64,000 bases of DNA from Mustelus asterias. Lineage: Eukaryota. How positions within the stretch are numbered: the stretch's first letter is position 1; each line of letters begins with the position of its first letter. Below are positions 17,205 to 52,974 of this stretch, piece after piece. The notes below the pieces were generated by a model. That model was not told where the DNA came from and did no database searches. It saw only the letters and a program-made list of their open reading frames with translations. The translations under genes and the position numbers were made by a program. The stretch spans positions 50,840,001 to 50,904,000 of the forward strand of contig NC_135808.1 in NCBI RefSeq assembly GCF_964213995.1, in the 5' to 3' direction.

Positions 17205-17438
17205 TGGTGTTGGAACGACACTTGGTGTGAGACAGGATCCGGACCCACTGCATTTGGGACAAGTTGGGGTTTATGGATGTGGGGAGCTGGGTGAGGATAT
17301 CGGAATAATGGAGTTAGTAGGCGGGACATGCAGGGATAAGGGTTTCTGTACTTAAGGGACTGATGTAGTGCGGAGACGGACAATGTTGTGGAAATAAGAG
17401 GCCGAAGTGATGGAGAGGATGTGGAGTTTGAAGCTCAG

Positions 17439-20427: not shown

Positions 20428-20725
20428 GTATCAGTGGAGACATCATCATGACCCAGTCTCCCCCGGTGCTGTCAGTGAGCCTGGGCCAGACCGCCACCAT
20501 CACCTGTACGGCCAGTCAATCTGTTAGCGATTACGTGAGTTGGTATCAACAGCGGGAAGGACAGAAACCGGCTCTGCTGATCTACTATGCATCAACTCGA
20601 TTCACAGGAATATCCGACCGATTCACCGGCAGTGGATCTGGGACACGATACACCCTGACAATCAGCAATGTACAGAATGAGGATGTCGCTGATTATTACT
20701 GTCAGCAATATGACAGCTACCCCTA
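20428..20725 (+). CDS. IGKV: Ig kappa-type (type III/NS4-like) V segment, intact and in germline configuration
   Basis: [27 protein letters not shown]...WYQQ...LLIY...RFTGSGSGT...[15 protein letters not shown]; both Cys and the Trp are conserved; no stops. Confidence 0.97.
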
Positions 20726-20753
20726 CACAGTGATACAGAGCCTTACAAAAACC
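20726..20753 (+). promoter_or_regulatory. 12-RSS of V
   Basis: CACAGTG + ATACAGAGCCTT (12) + ACAAAAACC, perfect consensus; V-12/J-23 is the kappa arrangement. Confidence 0.98.
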
Positions 20754-20756
20754 CCA

Positions 20757-22030
20757 ACACACACAGCACCACCTCCTGTACTGACACATCCCAGAGTGTT
20801 ATATAATATATAGTAATGGACACACAGCACCACCTCCTGTACTGACACATCCCACAGTTTTATATAATATATAATAATGGACACACAGTCCCACCTCCTG
20901 TACTGACACATCCCACAGTTTTATATAATATATAATAATGAATACACAGTCCCACCACCTGTACTGACACATCCCACAGTTTTATATAATATATAATAAT
21001 GGACACACAGTCCCACCTCCTGTACTGACACATCCCACAGTTTTATATAATATATAATAATGGACACACAGTCCCACCTCCTGTACTGACACATCCCACA
21101 GTTTTATATAATATATAATAATGGACACACAGTCCCACCTCCTGTACTGACACATCCCACAGTTTTATATAATATATAATAATGAACACACAGTCCCACC
21201 TCCTGTACTGACACATCCCACAGTTTTATATAATATCTAATAATGGACACACAGTCCCACCTCCTGTACTGACACATCCCACAGTTTTATATAATATATA
21301 ATAATGAACACACAGTCCCACCTCCTGTACTGACACATCCCACAGTGTTATATAATATATAATAATGGACACACAGTCCCACCTCCTGTACTGACACATC
21401 CCACAGTTTTATATAATATATAATAATGAACACACAGTCCCACCTCCTGTACTGACACATCCCACAGTTTTATATAATATATAATAATGAACACACAGTC
21501 CCACCTCCTGTACTGACACATCCCACAGTTTTATATAATATATAATAATGGACACACAGTCCCACCTCCTGTACTGACACATCCCACAGTTTTATATAAT
21601 ATATAATAATGAACACACAGTCCCACCTCCTGTACTGACACATCCCACAGTTTTATATAATATATAATAATGGACACACAGTCCCACCTCCTGTACTGAC
21701 ACATCCCACAGTTTTATATCATATATAATAATGGACACACAGTCCCACCTCCTGTACTGACACATCCCACAGTTTTATATAATATATAATAATGGACACA
21801 CAGTCCCACCTCCTGTACTGACACATCCCACAGTTTTATATAATATATAATAATGGACACACAGTCCCACCTCCTGTACTGACACATCCCACAGTTTTAT
21901 ATAATATATAATAATGGACACACAGTCCCACCTCCTGTACTGACACATCCCAGTTTTATATAATAGATAATAATGGACACACAGTCCCACCTCCTGTACT
22001 GACACATCCCACAGTTTTATATAATATAGA
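20757..22030 (+). repeat. 61-bp minisatellite, about 21 copies, in the V-J interval
   Basis: Unit ACACACAGTCCCACCTCCTGTACTGACACATCCCACAGTTTTATATAATATATAATAATGG. Confidence 0.97.
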
Positions 22031-22211
22031 ATAAAGACAAGAAAGGAAACTGGACAAATTATTTGCACTGTCCACTACACACTCCAGTCCCTGTGGTGTC
22101 CACCGCTCGCTGAAGGCCTCGAGTTTCCCTCTTACTCTCCATGTCCACATATGAAGAGCAACTGAAAGATTTATCATCTCAAATTAGAATTCTCAACTCT
22201 CCCAACAAAAC

Positions 22212-31643: not shown

Positions 31644-34600
31644 TGATGCGCGATTAAATCACTCGGGAGGCTGGATCGTACCCGGGAAATAAAGGCTTTT
31701 ATTAGTAACAAGAATGGAGCATACTGCATAACGATACAATCCCAGACTAAAGGGTCACCAGGCAGTGCAGTGACCTTTATACTCCTCCAGGTAGGCGGAG
31801 CCAACTCGAGTGTACCACAGAACAATATCAACAGGTAGAACACCCCAAACCTAACCCCAACAGTGCCAACAGTAACATATGTACAAGTACCCATAGTGCT
31901 AACCATCTATGGTTCAGTACCCATAGTGGTAACCAACTATGGTTCACCACATTCACCCCTCCTTTAAAACAAAGGCCAGTGGGGCAAAAAAAACAGTACG
32001 AACTGTCCATGTATTCACAAGTTCAGTCGTATCGGAGGGCCGCACTGTCTCTGCGACCTCCTCAACACTGGCGGTAGCACCGGTTCTGGTGACCGTGATG
32101 ACCCTCTCTCCAAGGCGCTGTCCAGTGACTTCTCCAGTTCCTCATGGACAGGTGGACCACGAGGTGGCGACAATCTCCTGGACTCGAGCACGCCTCGAGG
32201 TGGCGACAATCTCCTGGACTCAGGCAAGCTGTACACGGGAGTAAGAGGATTAAGTGGTGGTCCCGATACTGCCCGCGCCGTGTCAGGAGGGGAGATAAAG
32301 GTCAAGGGGTCCCTAACCAGGGGTGTGGGAGCGACAAGGGTTTCCAAGTCCCCTGCAGGCGCCAGATCTCGACTAGGGACCGTGTCCTCTCGCCCGTCAG
32401 GATATGCCACATAGGCATATTGAGGGTTGGCATGGAGGAGATGGACCTGTTCAACCAAAGGGTCGGACTTGCGGGTCCTAACATGTCGCCGCAGGAGGAC
32501 AGGTCCTGAGTACGTCAACCAAGACGGCAGTGAGGTCCCAGAGGAAGACTTCCGAGGGAAGGAAAACATCCGCTCATGTGGAGTAGCGTTGGTTGCCGTA
32601 CACAGGAGGGACCGGATGGAATGGAGCGCATCAGAAAGTACCTCTTGCCAACGGGAGACTGGAAGACCTTTAGACCTCAACGCCAGTAAGACAGCCTTCC
32701 AGACTGTAGCATTTTCTCTTTCAACCTGCCCGTTACCCCTGGGGTTGTACTCATAGTCCTACTTGAGGCAATTCCTTTAGAGAGCAGGTATTGCCTCAAG
32801 TCGTCACTCATAAACGACGAGCCCCTATCACTGTGGATATAGCTGGGGTAACCAAACAGGGTGAAAAGATCCCGCAATGCTTTGATAACCGTGGCAGCGG
32901 TCATGTCTGAACAGGGAATGGCAAAAGGGAATCGTGAGTACTCGTCAATCACATTGAGGAAGTACACGTTCCGATCTTTCGAAGGAAGGGGGCCCTTGAA
33001 GTCCACACTCAATCTTTCAAAAGGGCGAGTGGTCTTCATGAGGTGTGCCCTGTCAGGTCGATAGAAGTGCGGTTTGCATTCAGCACATACCTGGCAGCTT
33101 CGGGTTATGGACCTGACATCATCCACTGAGTAGGGTAGATTCCAGGCCTTTACGAAATGGAAGAGCCGAGTGATCCCCGGATGGCAGAGATCATTGTGGA
33201 GGGCCTGTAGCCGGTCCTCCTGCACACTGGCACATGTTCCACGCAACAGGGCATCTGAGGGCTCATTGAGCTTCCCCGGACGGTACATGATATCATAGTT
33301 GTAGGTGGAGAGTTCGATTCTCCACCTCAAGATTCTATCATTTTTGATCTTACCCCTTAACGTGTTGTTGAACATGAACGCCACGGACCGCTGGTCCGTG
33401 AGCAGGGTGAATCGTTTTCCAGCCAAGTAATGGCGCCAATGCCGGACGACCTCCACAATGGCCTGAGCCTCTTTTTCCATCGCCGAATGTCGAATTTCGG
33501 GGCCTTGGAGGGTGCGAGAGAAAAAGGCGACGGGCCTGCCCGCCTGGTTAAGTGTGGCGGCCAGGGCGAAATCAGATGCATCACTCTCCACCTGGAAGGG
33601 GATGGAGTCATCAACAGCGTGCATCGTGGCTTTCGCGATGTCAGCTTTTATCCCTTCAAAGGCTAAGCGAGCCTCTGCTGCCAGGGGAAAAGAGGTAGAC
33701 TTTATGAGCGGACGGGCTTTGTCTGCATAATTGGGAAGCCACTGTGCGTAATACGAAAAGAAGCCTAAGCATCTTCTCAGTGCTTTGACGCTAGTGGGTA
33801 GGGGAAGTTCAAGGAGGGAACCCATACGGTCTGGATCAGGGCCAAGGACCCCGTTTTCCACCACGTATCCGAGAATTGCTAGGCGGCGCTTGCTGAATAC
33901 ACACTTCTCCCTGTTATAGGTCAGATTCAGGCGAGACTCAGTGTGTAAAAACTTTAGGAGGTTGGCATCGTGGTCCTGCTGGTCATGGCCGCAGATAGTG
34001 ACGTTGTCCAGGTACGGGAAGGTAGCCCGTAGCCTGTTTTGGTCCACCATTCGGTCCATTGCACGCTGGAAGACCGAGACCCCATTCGTGACGCCAAAGG
34101 GGACCCTTAAGAAGCGGTAGAGACGGCCATCCGCCTCAAAGGCCGTATATTTTCGGTCCTCTGGGCGAATGGGGAGCTGGTGATAAGCTGACTTCAAGTC
34201 GATGGTGGAGAACACTCGGTACTGCGCAATCTGGTTGACCATGTCAGATATGCACGGGAGAGGGTACGCGTCCAGCTGCGTGTATCTATTAATGGTCTGA
34301 CTATAGTCTATGACCATCCGGGGCTTGTCTCCAGTTTTAACCACCACGACTTGTGCTCTCCATGGGCTAGTGCTAGGTTGAATGATCCCTTCCCTGAGGA
34401 GCCGCTGAACCTCAGATCAAATAAAGATCCGATCCTCAGCGCTGTAACGCCTGCTCTTAGTTGCGATGGGCTTGCAGCATGGCATGAGATTCTCAAATAA
34501 AGATGGCGGGGTGATTCGGAGTGTCGAGAGACTGCACGTGGAGCGCGCTGGGCAATTTGGAGGCTGCTGTTCTCCCACTGAAAGTGGAGGGAGTGGCCCA

Positions 34601-36391
34601 TCGTACTGCAGGGTCACACTCCTCAGGTGGACCATAAAGTCTAGTCCCAGGAGTATCGGGGCGCAAAGGTGCGGTAACACGAGGAGCCTGAAGTTCTCAT
34701 AAACTGTGCCCCGCACTGTTAGGTTGACCACGCAGCTCCCAAGAACGGTAACAGATTGGGACCTCGACGCCATAGAAATTGTCTGTCTGACAGTCTGTAC
34801 TCGGAGACCGCACCGTTTCACGGTGTCAGGATGAATGAAACTCTCCGTGCTCCCGCTGTCAAACAGACAATGTATTAGGCGTCCGTTTACCTCTATGCCC
34901 ATCATGGACTTGTCGAGTCTGTGAGGTTTGGCCTGGTCCAGGATGATTGACGCCACTGTTGAATCTTGAGTACAACTGCAGGCAGCTGAGATGGTTGATG
35001 ATGATGACCCCTGCTGGTCGTCTGTGGTCGGTGCCGACCAAAATGGCTGCGCCCATGGATCGCACGTGGTCGATGGCGTTGAAAGTGGCGGCTCTCGCAG
35101 GTCGCACGTGTCTTGCGTCATCGTCCTCAGGAATGGCGGCGCTCGTGAACCGCACGTGGTTGAAGACCTCGACGAAGCCGGAGATGAGGAGACAGTTTCT
35201 GGAGAGTCACGCGCCGCACTGCTTGGCTTTGAATGTGGTTTAGCTCAGCACACTTTAGCATAGTGCCCTTTCTTCCCAAACGTGGAGCAAAATACCGTTC
35301 TGGCCGGACATTGCTGACGAGGGTGCTTTGCCAATCCACAGAAATAGCACCGCGGGCCACCTGGAGCTGCCGCCGTCGTCAGGTCCGAGGTTGAAAGCAC
35401 GATCGCGCAGTTCCGAGGAGCCGCTGGGTAGAGTTGAGTTGGTGGCTGTACTTGCCACGATGTTCCCACATGGTCGGTGGGGTAAGTTTCAAGACTTCTG
35501 GAGGCCGTTTCCATCGCATCAGCCAATTCCACTGTCTTAGCTAGGTCTAAGTTACCTTGCTCTAGCAGCCGCAGGCGAATATAGGATGAGCCGATTCCCG
35601 CCACGAGCGCATCTCGGATCAGATCGTTAGTGTACTGAATAGCCGACACTGGCTTGCAATTGCAGGCTCTGGCTAGCTGCTGAAGTTCGCGCAGGTACTG
35701 TCCCGTCGTTTCGCCGGGCTGCTGCCGCCGAGTGGCGAGTAGGTGACGAGCATGAATCTCGTTTGGCGGTTTGTTGTACAGCTTCTTAAGTAGTTCGATG
35801 GCCCCTTTGTAGTCTTGGGCATCGCGGATTGTTGAATATACAGTGTCGCTTACCCTTGCGTGGAGGACCCGCAATCTATCGGTGTCGTTTTGAATGGCTG
35901 TTGAGGCGTCGATATAGTTTTGGAAACACTTCAACCAATGGTCGAAAGTGTTCGACGCTCCAGCTGCACGTGGATCTAAGGTAAGCCGATCGGGTTTTAA
36001 CATTTGCTCCATGGTTTTGTTTTTTTTTCAACCAAAATTGTTACTAATAAAATTGATGCGCGATTAAATCACTCGGGAGGCTGGATCGTACCCGGGAAAT
36101 AAAGACTTTTATTAGTAACAAGAATGGAGCAAACTGCATAACGATACAATCCCAGACTAAAGGGTCACCAGGCAGTGCAGTGACCTTTATACTCCTACAG
36201 GTAGGTGGAGCCGACCGGAGTGTACCACAGAACAATATCAACAGGTAGAACACCCCAACCCTAACCCCAACAGTGACAACAGTAACATATGTACAAGTAC
36301 CCATAGTGATAACCATCTATGGTTCAGTACCCATAGTGCTAACCATCTATGGTTCAGTACCCATAGTGGTAACCATCTATGGTTCACCACA
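31644..36391 (-). mobile_element. Full-length but disrupted Gypsy (Mag-like) LTR retrotransposon
   Basis: LTRs 36054-36391 and 31644-31951 (TGTGG...CATCA); PPT AAAGGAGGGGTGAA; gag 35245-36012 with two zinc knuckles; protease LFDSGS; RT YLDN; RNase H; integrase. Several stops and frameshifts. Confidence 0.95.
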
Positions 36392-37467
36392 ATCTGTAAA
36401 GCAGTTTCATAATTAGTGATCTGTGTTAAGTCTTTGTATCTTGGAGATCTCCCTTCTCTTGAACATTGTGTTTATGTGAGCAAAGTCTGTTAGAACCATA
36501 GAAAATTACAGCTCAGAAACAGGCCTTTTGGCCCTTCTTGTCTGTGCCGAACCATTTTCTGTCCAGTCCCACTGACCTGCACTTGGACCATATCCCTCCA
36601 CACCCCTCTCATCCATGAACCCGTCCAAGTTTTTCTTAAATATGTTAAAAGCATTTACCACTTTATCCGGCAGCTCATTCCACACTCCCACCACTCTCTG
36701 CGTGAAGAAGCCCCCCCTAATATTCCCTTTAAACTTTTCTCCTTTCACCCTTAACCCATGCCCTCTGGTTTTTTTCTCCCCTAGCCTCAGCGGAAAAAGC
36801 CTGCTTGCATTCACTCTATCTATACCCATCAAAATCTTATACACCTCTATCAAATCTCCCCTCAATCTTCTATGCTCCAGGGAATAAAGTCCCAACCTAT
36901 TCAATCTCTCTCTGTAACTCAGCTTCTCAAGTCCCGGCAACATCCTTGTGAACCTTCTCTGCACTCTTTCAACCTTATTTACATCCTTCCTGTAACTAGG
37001 TGACCAAAACTGTACACAATACTCCAAATTCAGCCTCACCAATGCCTTATATAACCTTACCATAACACTCCAACTTTTATACTCCATACTCCGATTTATA
37101 AAGGCCAATGTACCAAAGGCACTCTTTACGACCCTATCCACCTGTGACATCACTTCTGGGGAATTCTGTACCTGTATTCCCAGATCCCTCTGTTCAACTG
37201 CACTCTTCAGAGTTTGAGGCGCGTCTGATAAATAGACAAGGCTGATGATGCCAGGAACAGAAGGCTTTTATTCGCTAAAAAGGAACGATGTGGAACAGGC
37301 AATAAACAGAACAATACTGGGCATGAGGATCTCCCGACTGAGGCCGGAGGGGGAGGGCTGCAGCCTTTATACCCTGAGGGCGGAGCCTCCAGTTAAAGGT
37401 GTGTGGTGAACCATCGTTGGTTCCCACTGGATAGTGCTGAGCCAGGGGCTGGCCAGTACTACAAGGC

Positions 37468-40400
37468 CACTGGCTACCTGGCAGCCTCCGCAGCGGTCAC
37501 CACAGATGATGACAGACTCCGGGTCCTCCATGCGAGGGTAAGCGACACTGTCTACCTCGCGATCCGTGCGGCCACTAATTACCCTAAGGCCCTCGAGCTT
37601 CTAAAGAAGCGCTATACCAAACCACCTAACGAGATACACGCTCGTTACCTCCTAGCCACTCGACGACGGCAGTCTGGCGAAACGATGGAGGAATATGCGA
37701 ATAAGCTCCTACAGCTAGCCAGGGGCTGTGACTGCAAAGCTGTGTCGGCTGAGCAGAGCATGTACGACCTCGCCCGAGATGCGTTTGTGGCCGGGGTCGG
37801 ATCGTCGTACATTCGACTTAAACTGTTGGAGAAGGGTAACCTTAATCTTACCCAGGCCATCGAGTTAGCAGAGATGCTCGAGTCGGCCTCCAAGAGCTTA
37901 GTTTTATATCCGGAGGACCATGTGGAGACAACGTGGCAGGAGCAGTCGCAAATTCCTCCTCGTCCCTCGGGTTCGAAATGCTGTGTAATGGCGTGCTCCC
38001 ATTCGGGCCAGGCGACGGCTGCAGCCCCGAGCGGCCCGCGGTGCTATTTCTGTGGAGGAGTGAAGCATACTCGGCAAAAGTGTCCCGCTAAAGCTGTGTT
38101 GTGCACCGCATGTGGTAAAAAAGGGCATTATTCAAAAGTGTGCCGATCTAAACCCAGGAACGGCAGTGCGGCCTGCGATTCTTCAGAGCTCAGGTCTTCG
38201 TCGTCGAAGTCGTCGCGGGGTTCGTCCACATGCGAGACCAGGACGATGCCATTACGGTCGACGGAGTCGGAGGAGTATGACCACCAGGGGTCGCTGAGTT
38301 TGGCGCCCTCGCCCACGTGCGATTCATGGGGGCAGCCATGTTGGTCGACACTGACCACGAACGACCAGCAGGGGTCCTCCTCATCGATTTCAGCTGCCTG
38401 CAGTGGCGCTCATGAACCAACGGTGGCGTCGATCATCCTGGACCAGGCCAAGCCTCATAGACTTGACAAATCTATGATGAATATCCAGGTAAATAACCAC
38501 GTGATTTATTGTCTGTTTGACAGCGGGAGCACTGAGAGCTTTATCCACCCAGACACGGTGAAGCGGTGTGGACTCCAGATTCAACCTGCCAAACAGACAA
38601 TCTCTATGGCATCAAGGTCCCGGTCTGTTGCCGCGCTAGGGAGTTGCGTGGTAACCTTGAAGGTGCAAGGCACAGTTTACGAGCGATTCAAGCTCCTTGT
38701 GTTGCCATATCTTTGCGCGCCAATACTTCTCGGACTAAACTTCATGGTCCACTTGAGGAGTGTAATCCTACAGTACGGTGGGCCACTCCCTTCACTGGCA
38801 GTGGGAAAACAGCAGCAGCCTCCAAATTGCCCAACGCGCCCCGCCTGCAGCCTCTCGACGCTGACGATCACCACACCCTCCTTGTTCCAGAATCTTGTGC
38901 CAGGCTGCAAGCCCATCGTGACTAAAAGTAGGCGTTACAGCACTGAGGATCAGATCTTCATTAGATCTGAGGTTCAGCGGCTCCTCAAAGAAAGGATCAT
39001 ACAACCCAGTGCTAGTCCGTGGAGAGCGCAGGTCGTGGTAGTCAAGAGCGGGAACAAACCCCGGATGGTCATTGACTATAGTCAGACCATTAGCCGATAT
39101 ACGCAGCTGGATGCGTATCCCCTCCCGCGCATATCTGATATGGTCAATCAGATTGCGCAGTACCGGGTGTTCTCCACCATAGACCTCAAGTCTGCCTGCC
39201 ACCAACTCCCCATTCGCCCAGAGGACCGACAATACACGGCTTTTGAGGCGGATGGTCACTTGTATCACTTTCTCAGGGTTCCCTTTGGTGTCACCAATGG
39301 GGTCTCGGTCTTCCAGTGTGCTATGGACCGAATGGTGGACCAGAACGGGCTGCGGGCTACCTTCCCGTACCTGGATAATGTCACCATCTGCGGCCATGAC
39401 CAGCAGGACCACGACATAAACCTCCTGAACTTCTTACGCACTGCATCTCACCTGAACTTGACCTACAACAGGGAGAAGTGTGTATTCCGTACACGCCGGT
39501 TAGCCATCCTGGGATACGTGGTGGAAAACGGGGTCACTGGCCCTGATCCAGACCGTATGCGCCCCCTTTCTGAACTTCCCTTACCTGCTAGTGCAAAAGC
39601 ACTGAGAAGATGCTTAGGCTTCTTCTCTTATTATGCACAGTGGGTTCCCAACTACGCGGATAAAGCCCGTCCGCTCATTAAGTCCACGACTTTTCCCCTA
39701 ATGCCAGAGGCCCGATTGGCCTTCGATAAATTGAAAGCTGACATCACGAAAGCCACGATGCACGCGGTAGACGAGTCCATCCCCTTTCAGGTGGAGAGCG
39801 ATGCATCTGATTTCGCCCTGGCCGCCACATTTAACCAGGCGGGCAGGCCCGTCGCATTTTTTTCCCGCACCCTCCAAGGCCCCGAAATTCGGCATTCAGC
39901 GGTGGAAAAGGAGGCCCAGGCCATTGTGGAGGCCGTCAGGCACTGGTGCCATTACTTGGCGGGAAAACGGTTCACCCTGATCACGGACCAGCGGTCCGTG
40001 GCGTTCATGTTTAACAACACGCAGAGGGGCAAGATCAAGAATGACAAAATCTTGCGGTGGAGAATTGAACTCTCCACCTATAACTACGACATCATGTATT
40101 GTCCAGGGTAACTCAATGAGCCCTCGGATGCCCTCTCGCGTGGAACATGCGCTAGTATACAGGAGGACCGTTTGCACGCCCTCCATAATGACCTGTGCCA
40201 TCCTGGGGGTCACTCGGCTCTACCACTTTATAAAAGCCCGCAACCTGCCTTACTCGGTGGAGGACGTCAGGTCAGTAACAAGGAGCTGTCGGATTTGCGC
40301 GGAATGCAAACCGCACTTTTACCGACCTGACCGGGCACATTTAGTCAAGGCCACTCGTCCCTTCGAGAGACTGAGTGTCGATTTTAAGGGCCCCCTTCCC

Positions 40401-41369
40401 TCAATAGATCGGAATGTGTACTTCCTCAATATCATTGATGAGTACTCTCGGTTCCCTTTTGTTGTTCCCTGCTCTGATACATCCGCTGCCACGGTTATCA
40501 AGGCATTTCGTGATCTCTTTACCCTGTTCGGGTACCCCAGCTACATCCATAGCGACAGGGGCTCGTCGTTCATGAGTGATGACTTGAGGCAATTCCTGCT
40601 CTCATACGGGATTGCCTCTAGTAGGACCACGAGTTACAACCCTAGGGGTAACGGACAGGTGGAACGTGAGAATGCTACAGTCTGGAAGGCTGTCTTACTG
40701 GCGTTGAAGTCAAAAGGTCTTCCAGTCTCCCGCTGGCAAGAGGTGCTCCCTGATGCGCTCCATTCTATTCGCTCCCTCCTGTGTACAGCAACCAATGCTA
40801 CTCCCCACGAGAGGATGTTCTCATTCTCTCGGAAGTCTTCCTCGGGGACTTCATTACCGTCTTGGTTGACGTACTCAGGACCCGTCCTCCTGCGGCGACA
40901 TGTAAGGGCCCGCAAGTCCGACCCGTTGGTCGAACAGGTCCATCTCCTCCACGCCAACCCTCAGTATGCCTATGTGGCATACCCTGACGGGCGAGAGGAC
41001 ATGGTCTCGATCCGAGACCTGGCGCCAGCAGGGGACGTAGCAACTCCTGTCGCTCCCATACCCCCTGTAACAAACCCTTTATCTCTTGTTTCTTCCCCGG
41101 ACACGGCGCGGGCAGCATCGGGACCATTGCTTAACCATTTTACCCCCATGTACAGCTTGCCTGAGCCCAGAAGATGGTCGCCACCGCAGGGCGTGTCAGG
41201 ATCCCCTGGACTACCGTCACCTCAGGGTCAACCGGCCTGTGAGTCCGTGGAAGAACAGCTGGATGCCGTTTTGGGGAGAACGCCACCGCAAGTGCCTACT
41301 CCGGTGTCACCGCCGGTATTGAGGAGGTCACAACGACGGTGCGGTCCCCCTGACCGTCTGAACTTATAG
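37468..41369 (+). pseudogene. gag-pol, copy 1 (start deleted, stop at 40109-40111, +1 frameshift at 40205-40209)
   Basis: CCHC knuckles, LFDSGS protease, RT, RNase H, integrase; lesions identified by comparison with the minus-strand relative. Confidence 0.9.
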
Positions 41370-41800
41370 ACTGCTGACACTTTATCCTGTTTTTTTTGTA
41401 CCCCGCCGGCCTTTGTTCTCAAAGGAGGGGTGAATGTGGTGAACCATCGTTGGTTCCCACTGGATAGTGCTGAGCCAGGGGCTGGCCAGGACTACAAGGC
41501 TGTACATATGTTACTGTTGGGTTGTGCTATTGTTGCTGTTGGGGTTAGGGTGGGGTTGTTACACCTTTGTACTGTAGTGTTGTGGCACATCCCAGTCGGG
41601 CTCCGCCTCCTGGGAGAGGTATAAGAGTCCCTGCTCTGGCCGGGACCCCTTCAGTCTGGGATAGTGTATATAAGTTCTGGTAGCTTCGTTAACAGTAAAT
41701 AAAAGCCTTTCATTTACTGAGCTTCAAGCCTCGTGTCTGAATAGCGCATCAATTTTATTTACTGTCGTTAAACTCTCGTCGAAAAAAAAAGAGAGAGAGT

Positions 41801-44800
41801 ATGGAGCAAATTCTGAAGCCGGAACGCCTTACGCTAGATCCACGTGCGGTGGGCGCTTCTAACACCTTCGACCACTGGCTACCTGGCAGCCTCCGCAGCG
41901 GTCACCACAGATGATGACAGACTCCGGGTCCTCCATGCGAGGGTAAGCGACACTGTCTACCTCGCGATCCGTGCGGCCACTAATTACCCTAAGGCCCTCG
42001 AGCTTCTAAAGAAGCGCTATACCAAACCACCTAACGAGATACACGCTCGTTACCTCCTAGCCACTCGACGACGGCAGTCTGGCGAAACGATGGAGGAATA
42101 TGCGAATAAGCTCCTACAGCTAGCCAGGGGCTGTGACTGCAAAGCTGTGTCGGCTGAGCAGAGCATGTACGACCTCGCCCGAGATGCGTTTGTGGCCGGG
42201 GTCGGATCGTCGTACATTCGACTTAAACTGTTGGAGAAGGGTAACCTTAATCTTACCCAGGCCATCGAGTTAGCAGAGATGCTCGAGTCGGCCTCCAAGA
42301 GCTTAGTTTTATATCCGGAGGACCATGTGGAGACAACGTGGCAGGAGCAGTCGCAAATTCCTCCTCGTCCCTCGGGTTCGAAATGCTGTGTAATGGCGTG
42401 CTCCCATTCGGGCCAGGCGACGGCTGCAGCCCCGAGCGGCCCGCGGTGCTATTTCTGTGGAGGAGTGAAGCATACTCGGCAAAAGTGTCCCGCTAAAGCT
42501 GTGTTGTGCACCGCATGTGGTAAAAAAGGGCATTATTCAAAAGTGTGCCGATCTAAACCCAGGAACGGCAGTGCGGCCTGCGATTCTTCAGAGCTCAGGT
42601 CTTCGTCGTCGAAGTCGTCGCGGGGTTCGTCCACATGCGAGACCAGGACGATGCCATTACGGTCGACGGAGTCGGAGGAGTATGACCACCAGGGGTCGCT
42701 GAGTTTGGCGCCCTCGCCCACGTGCGATTCATGGGGGCAGCCATGTTGGTCGACACTGACCACGAACGACCAGCAGGGGTCCTCCTCATCGATTTCAGCT
42801 GCCTGCAGTGGCGCTCATGAACCAACGGTGGCGTCGATCATCCTGGACCAGGCCAAGCCTCATAGACTTGACAAATCTATGATGAATATCCAGGTAAATA
42901 ACCACGTGATTTATTGTCTGTTTGACAGCGGGAGCACTGAGAGCTTTATCCACCCAGACACGGTGAAGCGGTGTGGACTCCAGATTCAACCTGCCAAACA
43001 GACAATCTCTATGGCATCAAGGTCCCGGTCTGTTGCCGCGCTAGGGAGTTGCGTGGTAACCTTGAAGGTGCAAGGCACAGTTTACGAGCGATTCAAGCTC
43101 CTTGTGTTGCCATATCTTTGCGCGCCAATACTTCTCGGACTAAACTTCATGGTCCACTTGAGGAGTGTAATCCTACAGTACGGTGGGCCACTCCCTTCAC
43201 TGGCAGTGGGAAAACAGCAGCAGCCTCCAAATTGCCCAACGCGCCCCGCCTGCAGCCTCTCGACGCTGACGATCACCACACCCTCCTTGTTCCAGAATCT
43301 TGTGCCAGGCTGCAAGCCCATCGTGACTAAAAGTAGGCGTTACAGCACTGAGGATCAGATCTTCATTAGATCTGAGGTTCAGCGGCTCCTCAAAGAAAGG
43401 ATCATACAACCCAGTGCTAGTCCGTGGAGAGCGCAGGTCGTGGTAGTCAAGAGCGGGAACAAACCCCGGATGGTCATTGACTATAGTCAGACCATTAGCC
43501 GATATACGCAGCTGGATGCGTATCCCCTCCCGCGCATATCTGATATGGTCAATCAGATTGCGCAGTACCGGGTGTTCTCCACCATAGACCTCAAGTCTGC
43601 CTGCCACCAACTCCCCATTCGCCCAGAGGACCGACAATACACGGCTTTTGAGGCGGATGGTCACTTGTATCACTTTCTCAGGGTTCCCTTTGGTGTCACC
43701 AATGGGGTCTCGGTCTTCCAGTGTGCTATGGACCGAATGGTGGACCAGAACGGGCTGCGGGCTACCTTCCCGTACCTGGATAATGTCACCATCTGCGGCC
43801 ATGACCAGCAGGACCACGACATAAACCTCCTGAACTTCTTACGCACTGCATCTCACCTGAACTTGACCTACAACAGGGAGAAGTGTGTATTCCGTACACG
43901 CCGGTTAGCCATCCTGGGATACGTGGTGGAAAACGGGGTCACTGGCCCTGATCCAGACCGTATGCGCCCCCTTTCTGAACTTCCCTTACCTGCTAGTGCA
44001 AAAGCACTGAGAAGATGCTTAGGCTTCTTCTCTTATTATGCACAGTGGGTTCCCAACTACGCGGATAAAGCCCGTCCGCTCATTAAGTCCACGACTTTTC
44101 CCCTAATGCCAGAGGCCCGATTGGCCTTCGATAAATTGAAAGCTGACATCACGAAAGCCACGATGCACGCGGTAGACGAGTCCATCCCCTTTCAGGTGGA
44201 GAGCGATGCATCTGATTTCGCCCTGGCCGCCACATTTAACCAGGCGGGCAGGCCCGTCGCATTTTTTTCCCGCACCCTCCAAGGCCCCGAAATTCGGCAT
44301 TCAGCGGTGGAAAAGGAGGCCCAGGCCATTGTGGAGGCCGTCAGGCACTGGTGCCATTACTTGGCGGGAAAACGGTTCACCCTGATCACGGACCAGCGGT
44401 CCGTGGCGTTCATGTTTAACAACACGCAGAGGGGCAAGATCAAGAATGACAAAATCTTGCGGTGGAGAATTGAACTCTCCACCTATAACTACGACATCAT
44501 GTATTGTCCAGGGTAACTCAATGAGCCCTCGGATGCCCTCTCGCGTGGAACATGCGCTAGTATACAGGAGGACCGTTTGCACGCCCTCCATAATGACCTG
44601 TGCCATCCTGGGGGTCACTCGGCTCTACCACTTTATAAAAGCCCGCAACCTGCCTTACTCGGTGGAGGACGTCAGGTCAGTAACAAGGAGCTGTCGGATT
44701 TGCGCGGAATGCAAACCGCACTTTTACCGACCTGACCGGGCACATTTAGTCAAGGCCACTCGTCCCTTCGAGAGACTGAGTGTCGATTTTAAGGGCCCCC

Positions 44801-45774
44801 TTCCCTCAATAGATCGGAATGTGTACTTCCTCAATATCATTGATGAGTACTCTCGGTTCCCTTTTGTTGTTCCCTGCTCTGATACATCCGCTGCCACGGT
44901 TATCAAGGCATTTCGTGATCTCTTTACCCTGTTCGGGTACCCCAGCTACATCCATAGCGACAGGGGCTCGTCGTTCATGAGTGATGACTTGAGGCAATTC
45001 CTGCTCTCATACGGGATTGCCTCTAGTAGGACCACGAGTTACAACCCTAGGGGTAACGGACAGGTGGAACGTGAGAATGCTACAGTCTGGAAGGCTGTCT
45101 TACTGGCGTTGAAGTCAAAAGGTCTTCCAGTCTCCCGCTGGCAAGAGGTGCTCCCTGATGCGCTCCATTCTATTCGCTCCCTCCTGTGTACAGCAACCAA
45201 TGCTACTCCCCACGAGAGGATGTTCTCATTCTCTCGGAAGTCTTCCTCGGGGACTTCATTACCGTCTTGGTTGACGTACTCAGGACCCGTCCTCCTGCGG
45301 CGACATGTAAGGGCCCGCAAGTCCGACCCGTTGGTCGAACAGGTCCATCTCCTCCACGCCAACCCTCAGTATGCCTATGTGGCATACCCTGACGGGCGAG
45401 AGGACATGGTCTCGATCCGAGACCTGGCGCCAGCAGGGGACGTAGCAACTCCTGTCGCTCCCATACCCCCTGTAACAAACCCTTTATCTCTTGTTTCTTC
45501 CCCGGACACGGCGCGGGCAGCATCGGGACCATTGCTTAACCATTTTACCCCCATGTACAGCTTGCCTGAGCCCAGAAGATGGTCGCCACCGCAGGGCGTG
45601 TCAGGATCCCCTGGACTACCGTCACCTCAGGGTCAACCGGCCTGTGAGTCCGTGGAAGAACAGCTGGATGCCGTTTTGGGGAGAACGCCACCGCAAGTGC
45701 CTACTCCGGTGTCACCGCCGGTATTGAGGAGGTCACAACGACGGTGCGGTCCCCCTGACCGTCTGAACTTATAG
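41801..45774 (+). pseudogene. gag-pol, copy 2
   Basis: ATG at 41801 (MEQILKPERLTLDP) is frameshifted after FDHWL; same stop and +1 frameshift as copy 1. Confidence 0.9.
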
Positions 45775-46205
45775 ACTGCTGACACTTTATCCTGTTTTTT
45801 TTGTACCCCGCCGGCCTTTGTTCTCAAAGGAGGGGTGAATGTGGTGAACCATCGTTGGTTCCCACTGGATAGTGCTGAGCCAGGGGCTGGCCAGGACTAC
45901 AAGGCTGTACATATGTTACTGTTGGGTTGTGCTATTGTTGCTGTTGGGGTTAGGGTGGGGTTGTTACACCTTTGTACTGTAGTGTTGTGGCACATCCCAG
46001 TCGGGCTCCGCCTCCTGGGAGAGGTATAAGAGTCCCTGCTCTGGCCGGGACCCCTTCAGTCTGGGATAGTGTATATAAGTTCTGGTAGCTTCGTTAACAG
46101 TAAATAAAAGCCTTTCATTTACTGAGCTTCAAGCCTCGTGTCTGAATAGCGCATCAATTTTATTTACTGTCGTTAAACTCTCGTCGAAAAAAAAAGAGAG
46201 AGAGT

Positions 46206-49200
46206 ATGGAGCAAATTCTGAAGCCGGAACGCCTTACGCTAGATCCACGTGCGGTGGGCGCTTCTAACACCTTCGACCACTGGCTACCTGGCAGCCTCCG
46301 CAGCGGTCACCACAGATGATGACAGACTCCGGGTCCTCCATGCGAGGGTAAGCGACACTGTCTACCTCGCGATCCGTGCGGCCACTAATTACCCTAAGGC
46401 CCTCGAGCTTCTAAAGAAGCGCTATACCAAACCACCTAACGAGATACACGCTCGTTACCTCCTAGCCACTCGACGACGGCAGTCTGGCGAAACGATGGAG
46501 GAATATGCGAATAAGCTCCTACAGCTAGCCAGGGGCTGTGACTGCAAAGCTGTGTCGGCTGAGCAGAGCATGTACGACCTCGCCCGAGATGCGTTTGTGG
46601 CCGGGGTCGGATCGTCGTACATTCGACTTAAACTGTTGGAGAAGGGTAACCTTAATCTTACCCAGGCCATCGAGTTAGCAGAGATGCTCGAGTCGGCCTC
46701 CAAGAGCTTAGTTTTATATCCGGAGGACCATGTGGAGACAACGTGGCAGGAGCAGTCGCAAATTCCTCCTCGTCCCTCGGGTTCGAAATGCTGTGTAATG
46801 GCGTGCTCCCATTCGGGCCAGGCGACGGCTGCAGCCCCGAGCGGCCCGCGGTGCTATTTCTGTGGAGGAGTGAAGCATACTCGGCAAAAGTGTCCCGCTA
46901 AAGCTGTGTTGTGCACCGCATGTGGTAAAAAAGGGCATTATTCAAAAGTGTGCCGATCTAAACCCAGGAACGGCAGTGCGGCCTGCGATTCTTCAGAGCT
47001 CAGGTCTTCGTCGTCGAAGTCGTCGCGGGGTTCGTCCACATGCGAGACCAGGACGATGCCATTACGGTCGACGGAGTCGGAGGAGTATGACCACCAGGGG
47101 TCGCTGAGTTTGGCGCCCTCGCCCACGTGCGATTCATGGGGGCAGCCATGTTGGTCGACACTGACCACGAACGACCAGCAGGGGTCCTCCTCATCGATTT
47201 CAGCTGCCTGCAGTGGCGCTCATGAACCAACGGTGGCGTCGATCATCCTGGACCAGGCCAAGCCTCATAGACTTGACAAATCTATGATGAATATCCAGGT
47301 AAATAACCACGTGATTTATTGTCTGTTTGACAGCGGGAGCACTGAGAGCTTTATCCACCCAGACACGGTGAAGCGGTGTGGACTCCAGATTCAACCTGCC
47401 AAACAGACAATCTCTATGGCATCAAGGTCCTGGTCTGTTGCCGCGCTAGGGAGTTGCGTGGTAACCTTGAAGGTGCAAGGCACAGTTTACGAGCGATTCA
47501 AGCTCCTTGTGTTGCCATATCTTTGCGCGCCAATACTTCTCGGACTAAACTTCATGGTCCACTTGAGGAGTGTAATCCTACAGTACGGTGGGCCACTCCC
47601 TTCACTGGCAGTGGGAAAACAGCAGCAGCCTCCAAATTGCCCAACGCGCCCCGCCTGCAGCCTCTCGACGCTGACGATCACCACACCCTCCTTGTTCCAG
47701 AATCTTGTGCCAGGCTGCAAGCCCATCGTGACTAAAAGTAGGCGTTACAGCACTGAGGATCAGATCTTCATTAGATCTGAGGTTCAGCGGCTCCTCAAAG
47801 AAAGGATCATACAACCCAGTGCTAGTCCGTGGAGAGCGCAGGTCGTGGTAGTCAAGAGCGGGAACAAACCCCGGATGGTCATTGACTATAGTCAGACCAT
47901 TAGCCGATATACGCAGCTGGATGCGTATCCCCTCCCGCGCATATCTGATATGGTCAATCAGATTGCGCAGTACCGGGTGTTCTCCACCATAGACCTCAAG
48001 TCTGCCTGCCACCAACTCCCCATTCGCCCAGAGGACCGACAATACACGGCTTTTGAGGCGGATGGTCACTTGTATCACTTTCTCAGGGTTCCCTTTGGTG
48101 TCACCAATGGGGTCTCGGTCTTCCAGTGTGCTATGGACCGAATGGTGGACCAGAACGGGCTGCGGGCTACCTTCCCGTACCTGGATAATGTCACCATCTG
48201 CGGCCATGACCAGCAGGACCACGACATAAACCTCCTGAACTTCTTACGCACTGCATCTCACCTGAACTTGACCTACAACAGGGAGAAGTGTGTATTCCGT
48301 ACACGCCGGTTAGCCATCCTGGGATACGTGGTGGAAAACGGGGTCACTGGCCCTGATCCAGACCGTATGCGCCCCCTTTCTGAACTTCCCTTACCTGCTA
48401 GTGCAAAAGCACTGAGAAGATGCTTAGGCTTCTTCTCTTATTATGCACAGTGGGTTCCCAACTACGCGGATAAAGCCCGTCCGCTCATTAAGTCCACGAC
48501 TTTTCCCCTAATGCCAGAGGCCCGATTGGCCTTCGATAAATTGAAAGCTGACATCACGAAAGCCACGATGCACGCGGTAGACGAGTCCATCCCCTTTCAG
48601 GTGGAGAGCGATGCATCTGATTTCGCCCTGGCCGCCACATTTAACCAGGCGGGCAGGCCCGTCGCATTTTTTTCCCGCACCCTCCAAGGCCCCGAAATTC
48701 GGCATTCAGCGGTGGAAAAGGAGGCCCAGGCCATTGTGGAGGCCGTCAGGCACTGGTACCATTACTTGGCGGGAAAACGGTTCACCCTGATCACGGACCA
48801 GCGGTCCGTGGCGTTCATGTTTAACAACACGCAGAGGGGCAAGATCAAGAATGACAAAATCTTGCGGTGGAGAATTGAACTCTCCACCTATAACTACGAC
48901 ATCATGTATTGTCCAGGGTAACTCAATGAGCCCTCGGATGCCCTCTCGCGTGGAACATGCGCTAGTATACAGGAGGACCGTTTGCACGCCCTCCATAATG
49001 ACCTGTGCCATCCTGGGGGTCACTCGGCTCTACCACTTTATAAAAGCCCGCAACCTGCCTTACTCGGTGGAGGACGTCAGGTCAGTAACAAGGAGCTGTC
49101 GGATTTGCGCGGAATGCAAACCGCACTTTTACCGACCTGACCGGGCACATTTAGTCAAGGCCACTCGTCCCTTCGAGAGACTGAGTGTCGATTTTAAGGG

Positions 49201-50179
49201 CCCCCTTCCCTCAATAGATCGGAATGTGTACTTCCTCAATATCATTGATGAGTACTCTCGGTTCCCTTTTGTTGTTCCCTGCTCTGATACATCCGCTGCC
49301 ACGGTTATCAAGGCATTTCGTGATCTCTTTACCCTGTTCGGGTACCCCAGCTACATCCATAGCGACAGGGGCTCGTCGTTCATGAGTGATGACTTGAGGC
49401 AATTCCTGCTCTCATACGGGATTGCCTCTAGTAGGACCACGAGTTACAACCCTAGGGGTAACGGACAGGTGGAACGTGAGAATGCTACAGTCTGGAAGGC
49501 TGTCTTACTGGCGTTGAAGTCAAAAGGTCTTCCAGTCTCCCGCTGGCAAGAGGTGCTCCCTGATGCGCTCCATTCTATTCGCTCCCTCCTGTGTACAGCA
49601 ACCAATGCTACTCCCCACGAGAGGATGTTCTCATTCTCTCGGAAGTCTTCCTCGGGGACTTCATTACCGTCTTGGTTGACGTACTCAGGACCCGTCCTCC
49701 TGCGGCGACATGTAAGGGCCCGCAAGTCCGACCCGTTGGTCGAACAGGTCCATCTCCTCCACGCCAACCCTCAGTATGCCTATGTGGCATACCCTGACGG
49801 GCGAGAGGACATGGTCTCGATCCGAGACCTGGCGCCAGCAGGGGACGTAGCAACTCCTGTCGCTCCCATACCCCCTGTAACAAACCCTTTATCTCTTGTT
49901 TCTTCCCCGGACACGGCGCGGGCAGCATCGGGACCATTGCTTAACCATTTTACCCCCATGTACAGCTTGCCTGAGCCCAGAAGATGGTCGCCACCGCAGG
50001 GCGTGTCAGGATCCCCTGGACTACCGTCACCTCAGGGTCAACCGGCCTGTGAGTCCGTGGAAGAACAGCTGGATGCCGTTTTGGGGAGAACGCCACCGCA
50101 AGTGCCTACTCCGGTGTCACCGCCGGTATTGAGGAGGTCACAACGACGGTGCGGTCCCCCTGACCGTCTGAACTTATAG
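46206..50179 (+). pseudogene. gag-pol, copy 3
   Basis: Same three lesions; private substitutions at 47431 and 48758. Confidence 0.9.
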
Positions 50180-52974
50180 ACTGCTGACACTTTATCCTGT
50201 TTTTTTTGTACCCCGCCGGCCTTTGTTCTCAAAGGAGGGGTGAATGTGGTGAACCATCGTTGGTTCCCACTGGATAGTGCTGAGCCAGGGGCTGGCCAGG
50301 ACTACAAGGCTGTACATATGTTACTGTTGGGTTGTGCTATTGTTGCTGTTGGGGTTAGGGTGGGGTTGTTACACCTTTGTACTGTAGTGTTGTGGCACAT
50401 CCCAGTCGGGCTCCGCCTCCTGGGAGAGGTATAAGAGTCCCTGCTCTGGCCGGGACCCCTTCAGTCTGGGATAGTGTATATAAGTTCTGGTAGCTTCGTT
50501 AACAGTAAATAAAAGCCTTTCATTTACTGAGCTTCAAGCCTCGTGTCTGAATAGCACATCAAGGTGCAGCCGAATTAAAGGTGTCAGGGAGTGTCTCATA
50601 TATGAACAGTAGTGGCAACAATATATACAGCTCAACCGTGCCGAAGGCACGACAGTGGTTTACCACAGAGTCCTACCATTTACCCTGTACGTTCTACTTT
50701 GGTTTGTCCTTCCAAAGTGCAATATCTCACACTTGTCTGCATTAAATTCCATTTGCCATTTTTCAGCCCATTTTTCTAGTTGGTCCAAATCCCTCTGCAA
50801 GTTTTGAAAACATTCTTCACTGTCCACTACACCTCCAATCTTTGTATCATCAGCAAACTTGCTGATCCAATTTACCACATTATCATCCAGATCATTGATA
50901 TAGATGACAAACAACAATGGACCCAACACCGATCCCTGCGGCACACCACTAGTCACAGGCCTCCACTCAGAGAAGCAATCCTCCACAACCACTCTCTGGC
51001 TTCTTCCATTGAGCCAGTGTCTTATCCAATTTACTACCTCCCCATGTATACCTAGCAACTGAACCTTCCTAACTAACCTCCCATGAGGGACCTTGTCAAA
51101 GGCCTTGCTGAAATCCAGGTAGACAACATCCACTGCCTTCCCTTCATCCACTTTCCTGGTAACCTCCTCGAAAAACTCTAATAGATTGGTCAAACATGAC
51201 CTACCACGCACAAAGCCATGTTGACTCTCCCTAATAAGTCCCTGTCTATCCAAATATTTGTAGATCCTATCCCTTATCACACCTTCCAATAACTTGCCCA
51301 CCACCGACGTCAAACTTACTGGCCTATAATTTCCCGGATTTCTTTTGGAACCTTTTTCAAACAACGGAACAACATGAGCCACCCTCCAATGATCCAGCAC
51401 CTCCCCCGTGAATACTGACATTTTAATTATGTCTGCCAGGGCCCCTGCAAGTTCAACACTAGCTTCCCTCAAGGTCCATGGGAATACCCTGTCTGGTCCT
51501 GGGGATTTATCCACTCTGATTTGCCTCAAGACAACGAGCACCTCCTCCCCTTTAATCTGTAAAGGTTCCATGACTTCCCTACCTGTTTGCCCTATTTCTG
51601 TAGACTCCTTGCCCATTTCCTCAGTAAATATGGATGCAAAAAAACCATTTAGTATCTCCCCCATCTCTTTTGGTTCCATACACAGTCTACCACTCTGGTC
51701 TTCAAGAGGACCAATTTTATCCCTCACTATCCTTTTGCTCCTAACATACCTATAGAAGCTCTTTGGATTTTCCTTCAATCTGTCTGCCAAAGCAACCTCA
51801 TGTCTTCTTTTAGCCCTCCTGATTTCCCTCTTAAGTAGCTTCTTGCACTTTTTATACTCCTCGAGCATCTGATCTGTTCCTTGCTGCCTGTACATTTCAT
51901 ACAACTCTCTCTTCCTCTTAATCAGTGTTACAATCTCCCTCGAGAACCAAGGTTCCTTATTCCTATTTACTTTGCCTTTAATCCTGACAGGAACATACAA
52001 ACTCTGCACTCTCAAAATTTCTCCTTTGAAGGCCTCCCACTTTCCATTTACATCCTTACCAGAGAACAGCCTGTGCCAATCCATACTTCCCAGATCCCTT
52101 CTCATTTCATCAAATTTGGCCTTTTTCCAGTTCAGAACTTCAACCCGAGGACCAGATCTATCCTTATCCATGATCAGGTTGAAACTAATGGCATTATGAT
52201 CACTGGATCCAAAGTGTTCCCTCACACTCACATCCATCACCTGCCCTAACTCATTTCCCAATAGGAGATCCAATATCGCATCCTCTCTAGTTGGCACCTC
52301 TATATACTGATGTAGAAAATTCTCCTGAACACATTTTACAAACTCTACCCCGTCTAAACCTTTAACCGTATGCGAGTCCCAATCTATATGTGGAAAATTA
52401 AAATCCCCTACTATCACAACTTTGTGTTTCTTGCAGTTGTCAGCTATCTCTCCGCTGATTTGCTCCTCCAATTCTCGCTGACTATTGGGTGGTCTATAAT
52501 ACAACCCCATTAACGTGGTCATACCTTTCCTGTTTCTGAGCTCCACCCATAGGGCCTCTGTAGACAAGCTCCCTAATCTATCCTGCCTGAGTACCGCTGT
52601 AACATTTTCCCTGACCAACAATGCCACCTTAGCCTTTGGCTATTCTTAGCCTTTTTCAGCTGCATTATCTTGGAGAGGACGCTATCCCACGCAGATCAAT
52701 CATCAACACAGCACACAATGGAGAAACCTTTCTCACTTTGCCTCTTGTGGAATATGTCTGTCAGTACATTGGAGAAATAAACCCACATATCTATTCCTTC
52801 AACCAATGCCAGGTTTTCAGCAATAAGGTGCTTTTCGCAAAACCTTTTAATCTTCTTGGATTCTCAAACCAGAGTGTAACATTTAGTATTCTTTCCCACT
52901 AAGAATCTGATGAACCCTGCGCTGTTCAAAAACCGACCCAGAAGATTGGCATGTGAAGCATCACTAAATCGTAC

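What the first reader, a model, noticed from the sequence alone, without database searches (positions are those of the whole stretch)
36038..36121. Independent, covarying copy of the same duplex in a second Gypsy family
Seen: the minus-strand element has a different sequence but the same design. TTGTTACTAATAAAA (36038-36052) and TTTTATTAGTAACAA (36107-36121) form a perfect 15-bp inverted repeat, again 1 nt from the LTR end and again covering AATAAA. Different sequence with retained pairing points to selection on structure (inference). Prediction: full-length members of the third, solo-LTR family (37215-37401, sense TAGCGAATAAAA) should read ...CCTCA-N-TTTTATTCGCTA after the 5' LTR.
Basis: partly seen in the sequence, partly recalled or inferred. 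Interest (0 to 1): 0.72.

Follow-up and report, generated by a model that had tools for sequence, protein, structure and literature searches.

The report
Self-priming hairpin in animal Gypsy retrotransposons
A very abundant group of animal jumping genes has no tRNA landing site and instead carries a 13-15-base match to its own terminal repeat at that spot, so it likely starts copying itself with a piece of its own RNA, and folded-back insertions in the genome likely record that pairing at work.

Summary
Real, and broader than reported. The 15-bp inverted repeat is exact. The third-family prediction holds in 3 of 3 gag-linked 5' LTRs among 30 loci. The duplex sits in the same register, 1 nt after the LTR's CA, in 88 of 90 copies picked by gag start and in 33 of 38 distant relatives from other hosts. 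These form one lineage without a chromodomain.

Two corrections. The families are homologous, not independent. AATAAA lies in the duplex in only 18 of 33 distant relatives, so poly(A) masking is not the invariant.

The downstream arm occupies the primer-binding-site (PBS) position. Its covariation is sharply bounded, almost purely Watson-Crick and transversion-rich, which suggests templated copying from a primer. Seventeen of 30 aberrant loci read are fold-back LTR palindromes with 5-bp target duplications.

Best reading: Tf1-like self-priming in a non-chromoviral Gypsy lineage, with a primer about 37 nt inside the predicted transcript. The start site, the cut and which R copy primes are untested.

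The parts
31644..36390 (-). Family 2 Gypsy element (5' LTR 36390-36054, 337 bp; 3' LTR 31951-31644, 308 bp; gag-PR-RT-RH-IN, interrupted by stops and a frame change)
   Evidence: LTRs 297 of 307 identical; flanks do not form a matching target duplication
36186..36191 (-). TATA box (predicted promoter)
   Evidence: TATA found at the same place in 87 of 88 genome copies
36155..36160 (-). Initiator-like TTAGTC; predicted transcription start at A 36158 (untested)
   Evidence: TATA-to-Inr spacing 31-34 nt in 77 of 83 copies with both motifs
36124..36133 (-). Helix B 5' arm, predicted to pair with the gag start (36012-36003)
   Evidence: seen in this genome's families, not in distant relatives
36107..36121 (-). 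Arm 1: putative self-primer in R, ending in AATAAAA (hexamer 36113-36108); predicted primer 3' end at 36107
36054..36106 (-). Rest of R and U5, which would be the minus-strand strong-stop template; a stem is predicted just 3' of arm 1 and the LTR-end bases are mostly unpaired
   Evidence: pairing probability 0.58-0.75 at +1..+3; 0.12-0.17 for the last 2 nt
36038..36052 (-). Arm 2: PBS-position sequence, 1 nt after the LTR's CA, no TGG
36003..36012 (-). gag start codon and helix B 3' arm
31956..31965 (-). Polypurine tract, 4 nt before the 3' LTR
37215..37401 (-). Family 3 solo LTR, 3' part holding arm 1 (split by the family 1 array)
50567..50667 (-). Family 3 solo LTR, 5' part (288 bp in all)
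37402..50561 (+). Family 1 tandem array (three 4,405-bp units) with 5-bp target duplication AGGTG; 13-bp duplexes at 41692-41765 and 46097-46170

Best explanation
The downstream arm sits where a tRNA-binding site would be and matches a 13-15-nt segment of the element's own LTR, which likely serves as a self-primer for reverse transcription, as in Tf1, but is predicted to lie about 37 nt inside the transcript rather than at its 5' end. Steps: (1) shown: arm 1 and arm 2 are complementary in a fixed register across the lineage; (2) inferred: the 5' R copy of arm 1 pairs with arm 2 in the RNA and is cut just after its AAA end (AAA|RCC), probably by the element's RNase H, giving a 3'-OH that copies the spacer base, U5 and the rest of R; (3) inferred: the first strand transfer uses the short R stretch between that cut and the poly(A) site, which would explain why the poly(A) signal lies at or just 3' of arm 1; (4) inferred from fossils: plus-strand strong-stop DNA ends in a copy of the primer, which regenerates arm 2 from arm 1 each cycle and sometimes snaps back on arm 1 to give integrated palindromic double-U3 elements; (5) predicted side effects in this genome: the duplex hides the 5' AAUAAA, and a second G-U-tolerant helix hides the gag AUG.
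For: Register: arm 2 starts exactly 1 nt after the LTR end. Pairing is 0.00 at position 0, 0.94-1.00 at positions 1-13, 0.82 and 0.75 at 14-15, and 0.08 at 16 in 88 genome copies; the same register holds in 33 of 38 distant relatives. No TGG PBS occurs in these; 56 distinct arm-2 13-mers; at positions 8-13 cognate arms pair 5.8 of 6 against 3.0 for non-cognate. RNAalifold: 13 pairs, 9 with two-sided changes, none one-sided; 0 of 500 shuffles reach the covariation score (relatedness is not controlled). Transversion-rich compensation, and a rate no lower than the flanks. Fossils: 135 genome matches (control 0) to a pattern for the complement running past arm 1; of 30 read, 17 are full LTR + A + inverted arm1-U3 with distinct perfect 5-bp target duplications, and 4 more are partial or lack a called duplication. 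Two related outgroup elements (L268, L274) have an ordinary TGG PBS. Tf1 precedent: passages of PMC7175516, PMC4600332, PMC5341516.
Against: No RNA evidence: the start site rests on TATA/Inr motifs that are conserved in this genome but not in distant relatives. In Tf1 the primer is the first 11 nt (PMC7175516 passage); a primer with a ~37-nt 5' tail needs an extra trimming step to give the sharp 13-15-nt boundary. The fold-backs show pairing on DNA during replication but not which R copy primes; the two arms of a palindrome are closer to each other than to any other palindrome in only 11 of 19. The apparent faster rate in the arm is not significant after correcting for ascertainment (p=0.20). 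5 of 38 distant relatives fail the register test. Copies are related, so counts overstate the number of independent events.
Confidence: 0.6

Rival explanations
1. Self-priming by the RNA's own 3' end: the 3' R copy of arm 1, which lies just upstream of the poly(A) site, pairs with the PBS, and the tail beyond it is trimmed or cut back to the duplex to give the 3'-OH.
For: Arm 1 ends at or just upstream of a poly(A)-type hexamer and 24-70 nt from the LTR end in all families, so it lies near the RNA 3' end and far from the predicted start. Trimming back to a duplex would give the invariant end. Fold-back fossils have U3 joined through arm 1 to the minus-strand sequence.
Against: The 5' copy is only ~50 nt from arm 2 and folds stably in cis (-44.1 kcal/mol, z -3.06), which should block the distant copy. 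The fossils end exactly at the U3 TG with target duplications, which plus-strand fold-back explains more simply.
Confidence: 0.2
2. Exactly the Tf1 design: the transcript used for replication starts at the 5' end of arm 1, so the primer is simply the first 13-15 nt.
For: The sharp 13-15-nt length. Distant relatives lack a conserved upstream TATA/Inr. Tf2 uses alternative start sites (PMC5341516 passages).
Against: TATA in 87 of 88 and Inr in 84 of 88 copies place the start ~50 nt before the arm-1 3' end. Helix B, which lies 5' of arm 1, covaries with the gag codon 2 third base through G-U pairs, so the sequence upstream of arm 1 is probably in the same RNA.
Confidence: 0.1
3. The duplex is regulatory only (it hides the 5' poly(A) signal and the AUG) and is kept by selection on structure; priming uses something else.
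For: AAUAAA is predicted paired in the 5' leader (unpaired <=0.05) and more open at the 3' end (0.36-0.64). 83 of 88 genome copies have the hexamer in arm 1.
Against: 15 of 33 distant relatives have no AATAAA/ATTAAA in arm 1, some through copy-specific changes but several as whole families. No other PBS exists at the LTR edge. G-U pairs are nearly absent. The fold-back insertions imply a plus-strand DNA end in arm 2.
Confidence: 0.07
4. Chance, or a host-DNA rearrangement artefact.
For: The arms are AT-rich, and other 12-14-bp inverted repeats occur in the window.
Against: 8,830 against 62 control matches; fixed register across RT sequences only 44-66% identical; blind prediction met.
Confidence: 0.01

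Closest known systems
Tf1/Tf2/Tj1 self-priming of fission-yeast chromoviruses (Tf1/sushi group, Tcn1)
   Same: PBS-position sequence complementary to an R-region sequence of the element's own LTR, no tRNA, primer end facing U5 (passages of PMC7175516, PMC4600332, PMC5341516, PMC6317226).
   Different: No chromodomain or Tf2 SH3 domain, and a chromovirus (L261) lies outside the clade at 29% RT identity. The duplex is 13-15 bp, not 11. The primer is predicted ~37 nt inside the transcript and overlaps or abuts the poly(A) signal.
TAR/Houba Copia elements of plants (predicted self-priming)
   Same: Self-priming predicted outside chromoviruses (PMC6317226 passage).
   Different: Copia superfamily and plant hosts; here a Gypsy domain order PR-RT-RH-IN in animals.
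Skipper elements of dictyostelids
   Same: TGG PBS replaced by a pyrimidine-rich tract (PMC5006619 passages).
   Different: Skipper has a chromodomain and, by that paper, no complementary region in the LTR; here the complement is present and covaries.
Retroviral leader structures (poly(A) hairpin, U5-AUG duplex, U5-IR stem); recalled, not from a call
   Same: 5' poly(A) signal and gag AUG predicted to be sequestered by pairing.
   Different: Retroviruses prime with tRNA; here the helix that hides AAUAAA is the putative primer-PBS helix itself.
Cigr-1 / 'Gypsy-Cigr' clade (label recalled; small single-ORF Gypsy of Ciona, also reported in molluscs and annelids)
   Same: Relatives here are ~4-kb single-ORF elements of 1,150-1,340 aa in marine invertebrates and cartilaginous fish, which fits my recollection of Cigr-1.
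   Different: No reference sequence was available, so clade identity is untested; a MolGy clade is also possible.

Membership tests
Ty3/Gypsy LTR retrotransposon | LTR pair TG...CA, PPT, gag then PR-RT-RH-IN | tested here: met
   best PDB match is Ty3 RT, E 1e-45
Tf1-type self-priming | No tRNA-type (TGG) PBS; PBS-position sequence complementary to own LTR | tested here: met
   88 of 90 and 33 of 38 in register
Tf1-type self-priming | Primer is the first nucleotides of the mRNA | tested here: inconclusive
   Motifs place the start ~37 nt upstream of arm 1; no read data on RNA ends
Tf1-type self-priming | RNase H of RT cuts the RNA to release the primer | not testable with these tools
   RNase H domain present; conserved AAA|RCC at the predicted cut
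Tf1-type self-priming | R-U5 stem next to the primer helix (recalled from the Tf1 literature; only titles seen) | tested here: inconclusive
   Stem predicted just 3' of arm 1, but no consensus helix on the alignment
Chromovirus (Tf1/sushi/Tcn1) | Chromodomain or Tf2 SH3 at the integrase C-terminus | tested here: not met
   Absent in 7 of 7 proteins scanned and in the precomputed domains of 120 long relatives
Chromovirus (Tf1/sushi/Tcn1) | RT groups with chromoviruses | tested here: not met
   The 83-row clade (SH-aLRT 100, quick tree) excludes L261, a chromodomain-bearing element; only one chromovirus was in the tree, with no Tf1 or sushi reference
CsRn1 clade | tRNA-Trp TGG PBS (PMC3587641 passage on GyRex2/Boudicca) | tested here: not met
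   No TGG at the LTR edge, although the LTR start fits the CsRN1 TGTGGYG motif of PMC3601003
Gmr1 clade | Integrase upstream of RT | tested here: not met
   Order is RT-RH-IN; outgroup L268 has IN before RT and a TGG PBS
Cigr-1 or MolGy clades | RT clusters with the reference elements | not testable with these tools
   No reference sequences found in two papers' supplements (1 and 3 files not searched)

The most novel reading that the evidence does not exclude
An animal-wide, non-chromoviral Gypsy lineage primes reverse transcription in a way not described in the papers searched: the primer is an internal R segment tied to the poly(A) signal, possibly the genomic RNA's own trimmed 3' end. The PBS is rewritten from it each cycle, and a by-product class of integrase-inserted palindromic double-U3 elements (roughly 1 per 100 full elements, extrapolated from 21 of 30 loci read) records the plus-strand intermediate.
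Probability: 0.3. Interest if true: 0.85.

Novelty: new variant of a known kind. Interest (0 to 1): 0.7.

Why it matters
In the papers read, self-priming among Gypsy elements is tied to the Tf1/sushi chromoviruses. A separate lineage, with over 11,000 gag starts in this genome and relatives in corals, molluscs, flatworms, nematodes, arthropods and cartilaginous fish, would be either a second origin or evidence that self-priming is older and wider than thought, which bears on the proposal that hairpin priming preceded tRNA priming (PMC3601003 passage). It would also escape silencing by tRNA fragments (inference), explain why PBS finders fail on these elements, and supply a genomic fossil (fold-back insertions) that reports on a reverse-transcription intermediate and could be sought in other self-priming groups.

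Tried and rejected
RNA evidence: no RNA holder listed on record. Four runs were laid, all contigs, which cannot show RNA ends; not used for or against. Poly(A)-tailed retro-copies to map the RNA 3' end: 0 matches, control 0; uninformative. Recombination-breakpoint mapping to tell the 5' from the 3' primer copy (109 leaders, segment distance correlations): arm 1 and PBS were most correlated (0.82-0.87), but no clear breakpoint appeared. A first gag-start locator for distant loci was noisy because some queries began at the protease; it was replaced. Of 94 distant loci, 41 had a located gag start and 3 of those were too near a contig end, leaving 38. Helix B as a lineage-wide feature: rejected (8 of 29 distant against 3-6 of 29 in shifted controls); even in this genome two shifted controls reached 36 and 49 of 88 against 83 of 88, so the support is the codon-2 covariation (G-C 48, A-T 20, G-T 15, A-C 1, T-T 1, unassigned 3); on the unanchored alignment it is 76% paired. 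SH3_Tf2-1-bearing elements from this genome as controls: 8 regions, too decayed to give LTR junctions. Rfam and tRNA scans: nothing. ESM Atlas: generic Gag clusters only. Clade naming: not achieved. The careful tree did not finish; the quick tree is used. The primary Tf1 papers and review (PMC1369541, PMC1563812, PMC109269, PMC231564, PMC6388632) are not held and were not read.

Full report
Observation. The 15-bp perfect inverted repeat is at the stated coordinates and is the longest of 9 such repeats (>=12 bp, loop <=120) in the window. It belongs to a minus-strand Gypsy element at 31644-36390 with LTRs of 337 and 308 bp (297 of 307 aligned bases identical), a polypurine tract and gag-PR-RT-RH-IN, broken by stops and a frame change. 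Arm 1 (36121-36107) ends in AATAAAA; arm 2 (36052-36038) begins one base after the LTR's CA and 26 nt before the gag ATG. The closest named proteins are from sharks and rays.

Of the 30 best genome matches to the third-family LTR, 3 are followed by gag and all 3 carry the predicted complement; 27 run into unrelated flank. Thirteen such junctions exist genome-wide by pattern (control 0), and 12 of 12 read are in register.

Breadth. The design pattern has 8,830 matches against 62 for the control. A pattern on the gag start alone, blind to the leader, has 11,092 matches. I read 90 of its first 100 listed places, all on contig C1: 72 have a perfect helix of 13 bp or more and 88 have at least 11 of 13 Watson-Crick pairs in the CA-N-arm2 register; the 2 failures are deleted or replaced leaders. 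Ninety-four related loci were fetched from metagenome, viral and MAG collections; 38 had a usable gag start and 33 of these show the same register. They are 44-66% identical to the window RT and fall in all main sampled branches of one clade of 83 rows (SH-aLRT 100, quick tree). A chromodomain-bearing element (L261) and an IN-before-RT element with a TGG PBS (L268) lie outside. No chromodomain or Tf2 SH3 domain was found in 7 proteins scanned or in the listed domains of 120 long relatives. I could not name the clade; Cigr-1 is a recalled guess.

Independence and AATAAA. Families 1 and 2 are homologous, so this is covariation within one inherited structure. The hexamer AATAAA/ATTAAA lies in arm 1 in 83 of 88 genome copies but only 18 of 33 distant relatives; L181 and L182 carry it separately in the loop. 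What is conserved is the arm-1 end (AAA then GCC/ACC-like) and the one-base spacer.

Why a primer. Arm 2 occupies the only place a PBS can occupy, has no TGG, and takes 56 different 13-mer sequences that track arm 1. Pairing switches on at position 1 (0.00 to 1.00), holds to 13-15 and drops to 0.08 at 16. RNAalifold on 24 leaders gives 13 pairs, 9 with two-sided and none with one-sided changes. Among 88 copies there are 1,127 Watson-Crick, 6 G-U and 11 mismatched cells. Between nearest subfamilies the 48 double changes are 32 transversions and 16 transitions, against 150 and 231 in the flanks (p=5e-4); the rate is higher than in the flanks before, and not different after, correcting for ascertainment. 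A stem kept by selection alone usually changes slowly through G-U intermediates (own knowledge); this pattern fits the PBS being re-copied from the primer during plus-strand synthesis (inference). These counts are not phylogenetically independent.

Fossils. A pattern for the complement running on past arm 1 has 135 matches, control 0. Of 30 loci read, 17 are a full LTR, the spacer A and an inverted arm1-U3 copy ending at the U3 terminus, each with its own perfect 5-bp target duplication; 2 are long fold-backs without a called duplication; 2 have lost the left arm; 7 continue into gag (2 with a 23-nt complement that rejoins the leader, 5 ordinary variants); 2 are other. L276 has a 24-bp complement running straight into the gag ATG. 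Target duplications outside two U3 ends mean these were made before integration. The simplest reading is plus-strand strong-stop DNA ending in arm 2 and annealing to arm 1 (inference). The two arms are more alike within than between palindromes in only 11 of 19 cases, so some may be intermolecular or converted later.

Difference from Tf1. [quoted passage not shown] Here TATA (87 of 88) and an Inr-like motif (84 of 88), 31-34 nt apart in 77 of 83, put the start about 50 nt before arm 1's 3' end; distant relatives show no such conserved promoter. The primer is therefore predicted to be internal. Arm 1 is present in both R copies, so the 5' copy cut in cis (preferred; leader fold -44.1 kcal/mol, z -3.06) and the trimmed 3' copy both fit. 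No RNA-end data were available and breakpoint mapping did not decide.

Secondary features. In this genome a 6-8-bp helix is predicted between the motif just 5' of arm 1 and the gag start (83 of 88; shifted controls 0-49 of 88). The third base of codon 2 tracks its partner (G-C 48, A-T 20, G-T 15, mismatched 2, unassigned 3), and its variants are G-U wobbles, as expected for an RNA helix under selection; it is not seen in distant relatives. AAUAAA is predicted closed in the 5' leader and more open at the 3' end.

Literature. Nine searches found self-priming described for Tf1/sushi/Tcn1 chromoviruses, predicted for plant TAR/Houba Copia, and unexplained priming in Skipper and fungal GalEa. None of the passages read describes it in a non-chromoviral animal Gypsy lineage, or describes fold-back LTR insertions. 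I saw passages only of PMC3601003, PMC6317226, PMC4600332, PMC13524379, PMC3587641, PMC6238403, PMC8556966, PMC3670739, PMC7175516, PMC5341516, PMC5006619 and PMC5445492, plus a term search in the supplements of PMC6238403 and PMC8556966 (4 files not searched). Three look-ups of earlier scan notes found nothing on this feature; one note on Penelope elements in this genome suggested looking for genomic footprints.

Verdict. A real, lineage-wide primer-PBS-type duplex. Self-priming of some form about 0.9; the specific internal 5'-copy model 0.6. New variant of a known mechanism; interest 0.7.

Noticed in passing
window 37402-50561: Three 4,405-bp family 1 units, 100% identical in the 300-nt stretch compared, share one target duplication; the first unit's 5' LTR is fused to gag by a deletion that removes the duplex. 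Recent tandem amplification or an assembly artefact.
   Followed up: partly
window 31644-36390: Family 2 copy has non-matching flanks and one more 29-bp U3 repeat in the 5' LTR than in the 3' LTR; it may be a recombinant of two insertions.
   Followed up: partly
L303, L314, L321-L324, L326, L328, L329, L331-L334, L336, L338, L339, L341: MITE-like ~600-bp palindromic insertions made of LTR parts, mostly from one 332-bp-LTR subfamily group.
   Followed up: yes
L058 and L035/L286: One copy has arm 1 duplicated in the 5' LTR; another lacks arm 1 in the 5' LTR only and has a large internal deletion.
   Followed up: partly
L193:1-180: A basal relative has a 14-bp LTR complement after the LTR end in a slightly different register (read by eye; not in the set of 38).
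   Followed up: no
L194, L270: Minimal design: only 24 nt between the arms, a short hairpin plus the LTR end.
   Followed up: no
L262-L274: These animal retrotransposons sit in contigs of bacterial MAGs and are named as bacterial integrases in protein records; probably host contamination.
   Followed up: no
window 16611-17298 and 20637-22095: Tandem arrays with 23-bp and 61-bp periods.
   Followed up: no
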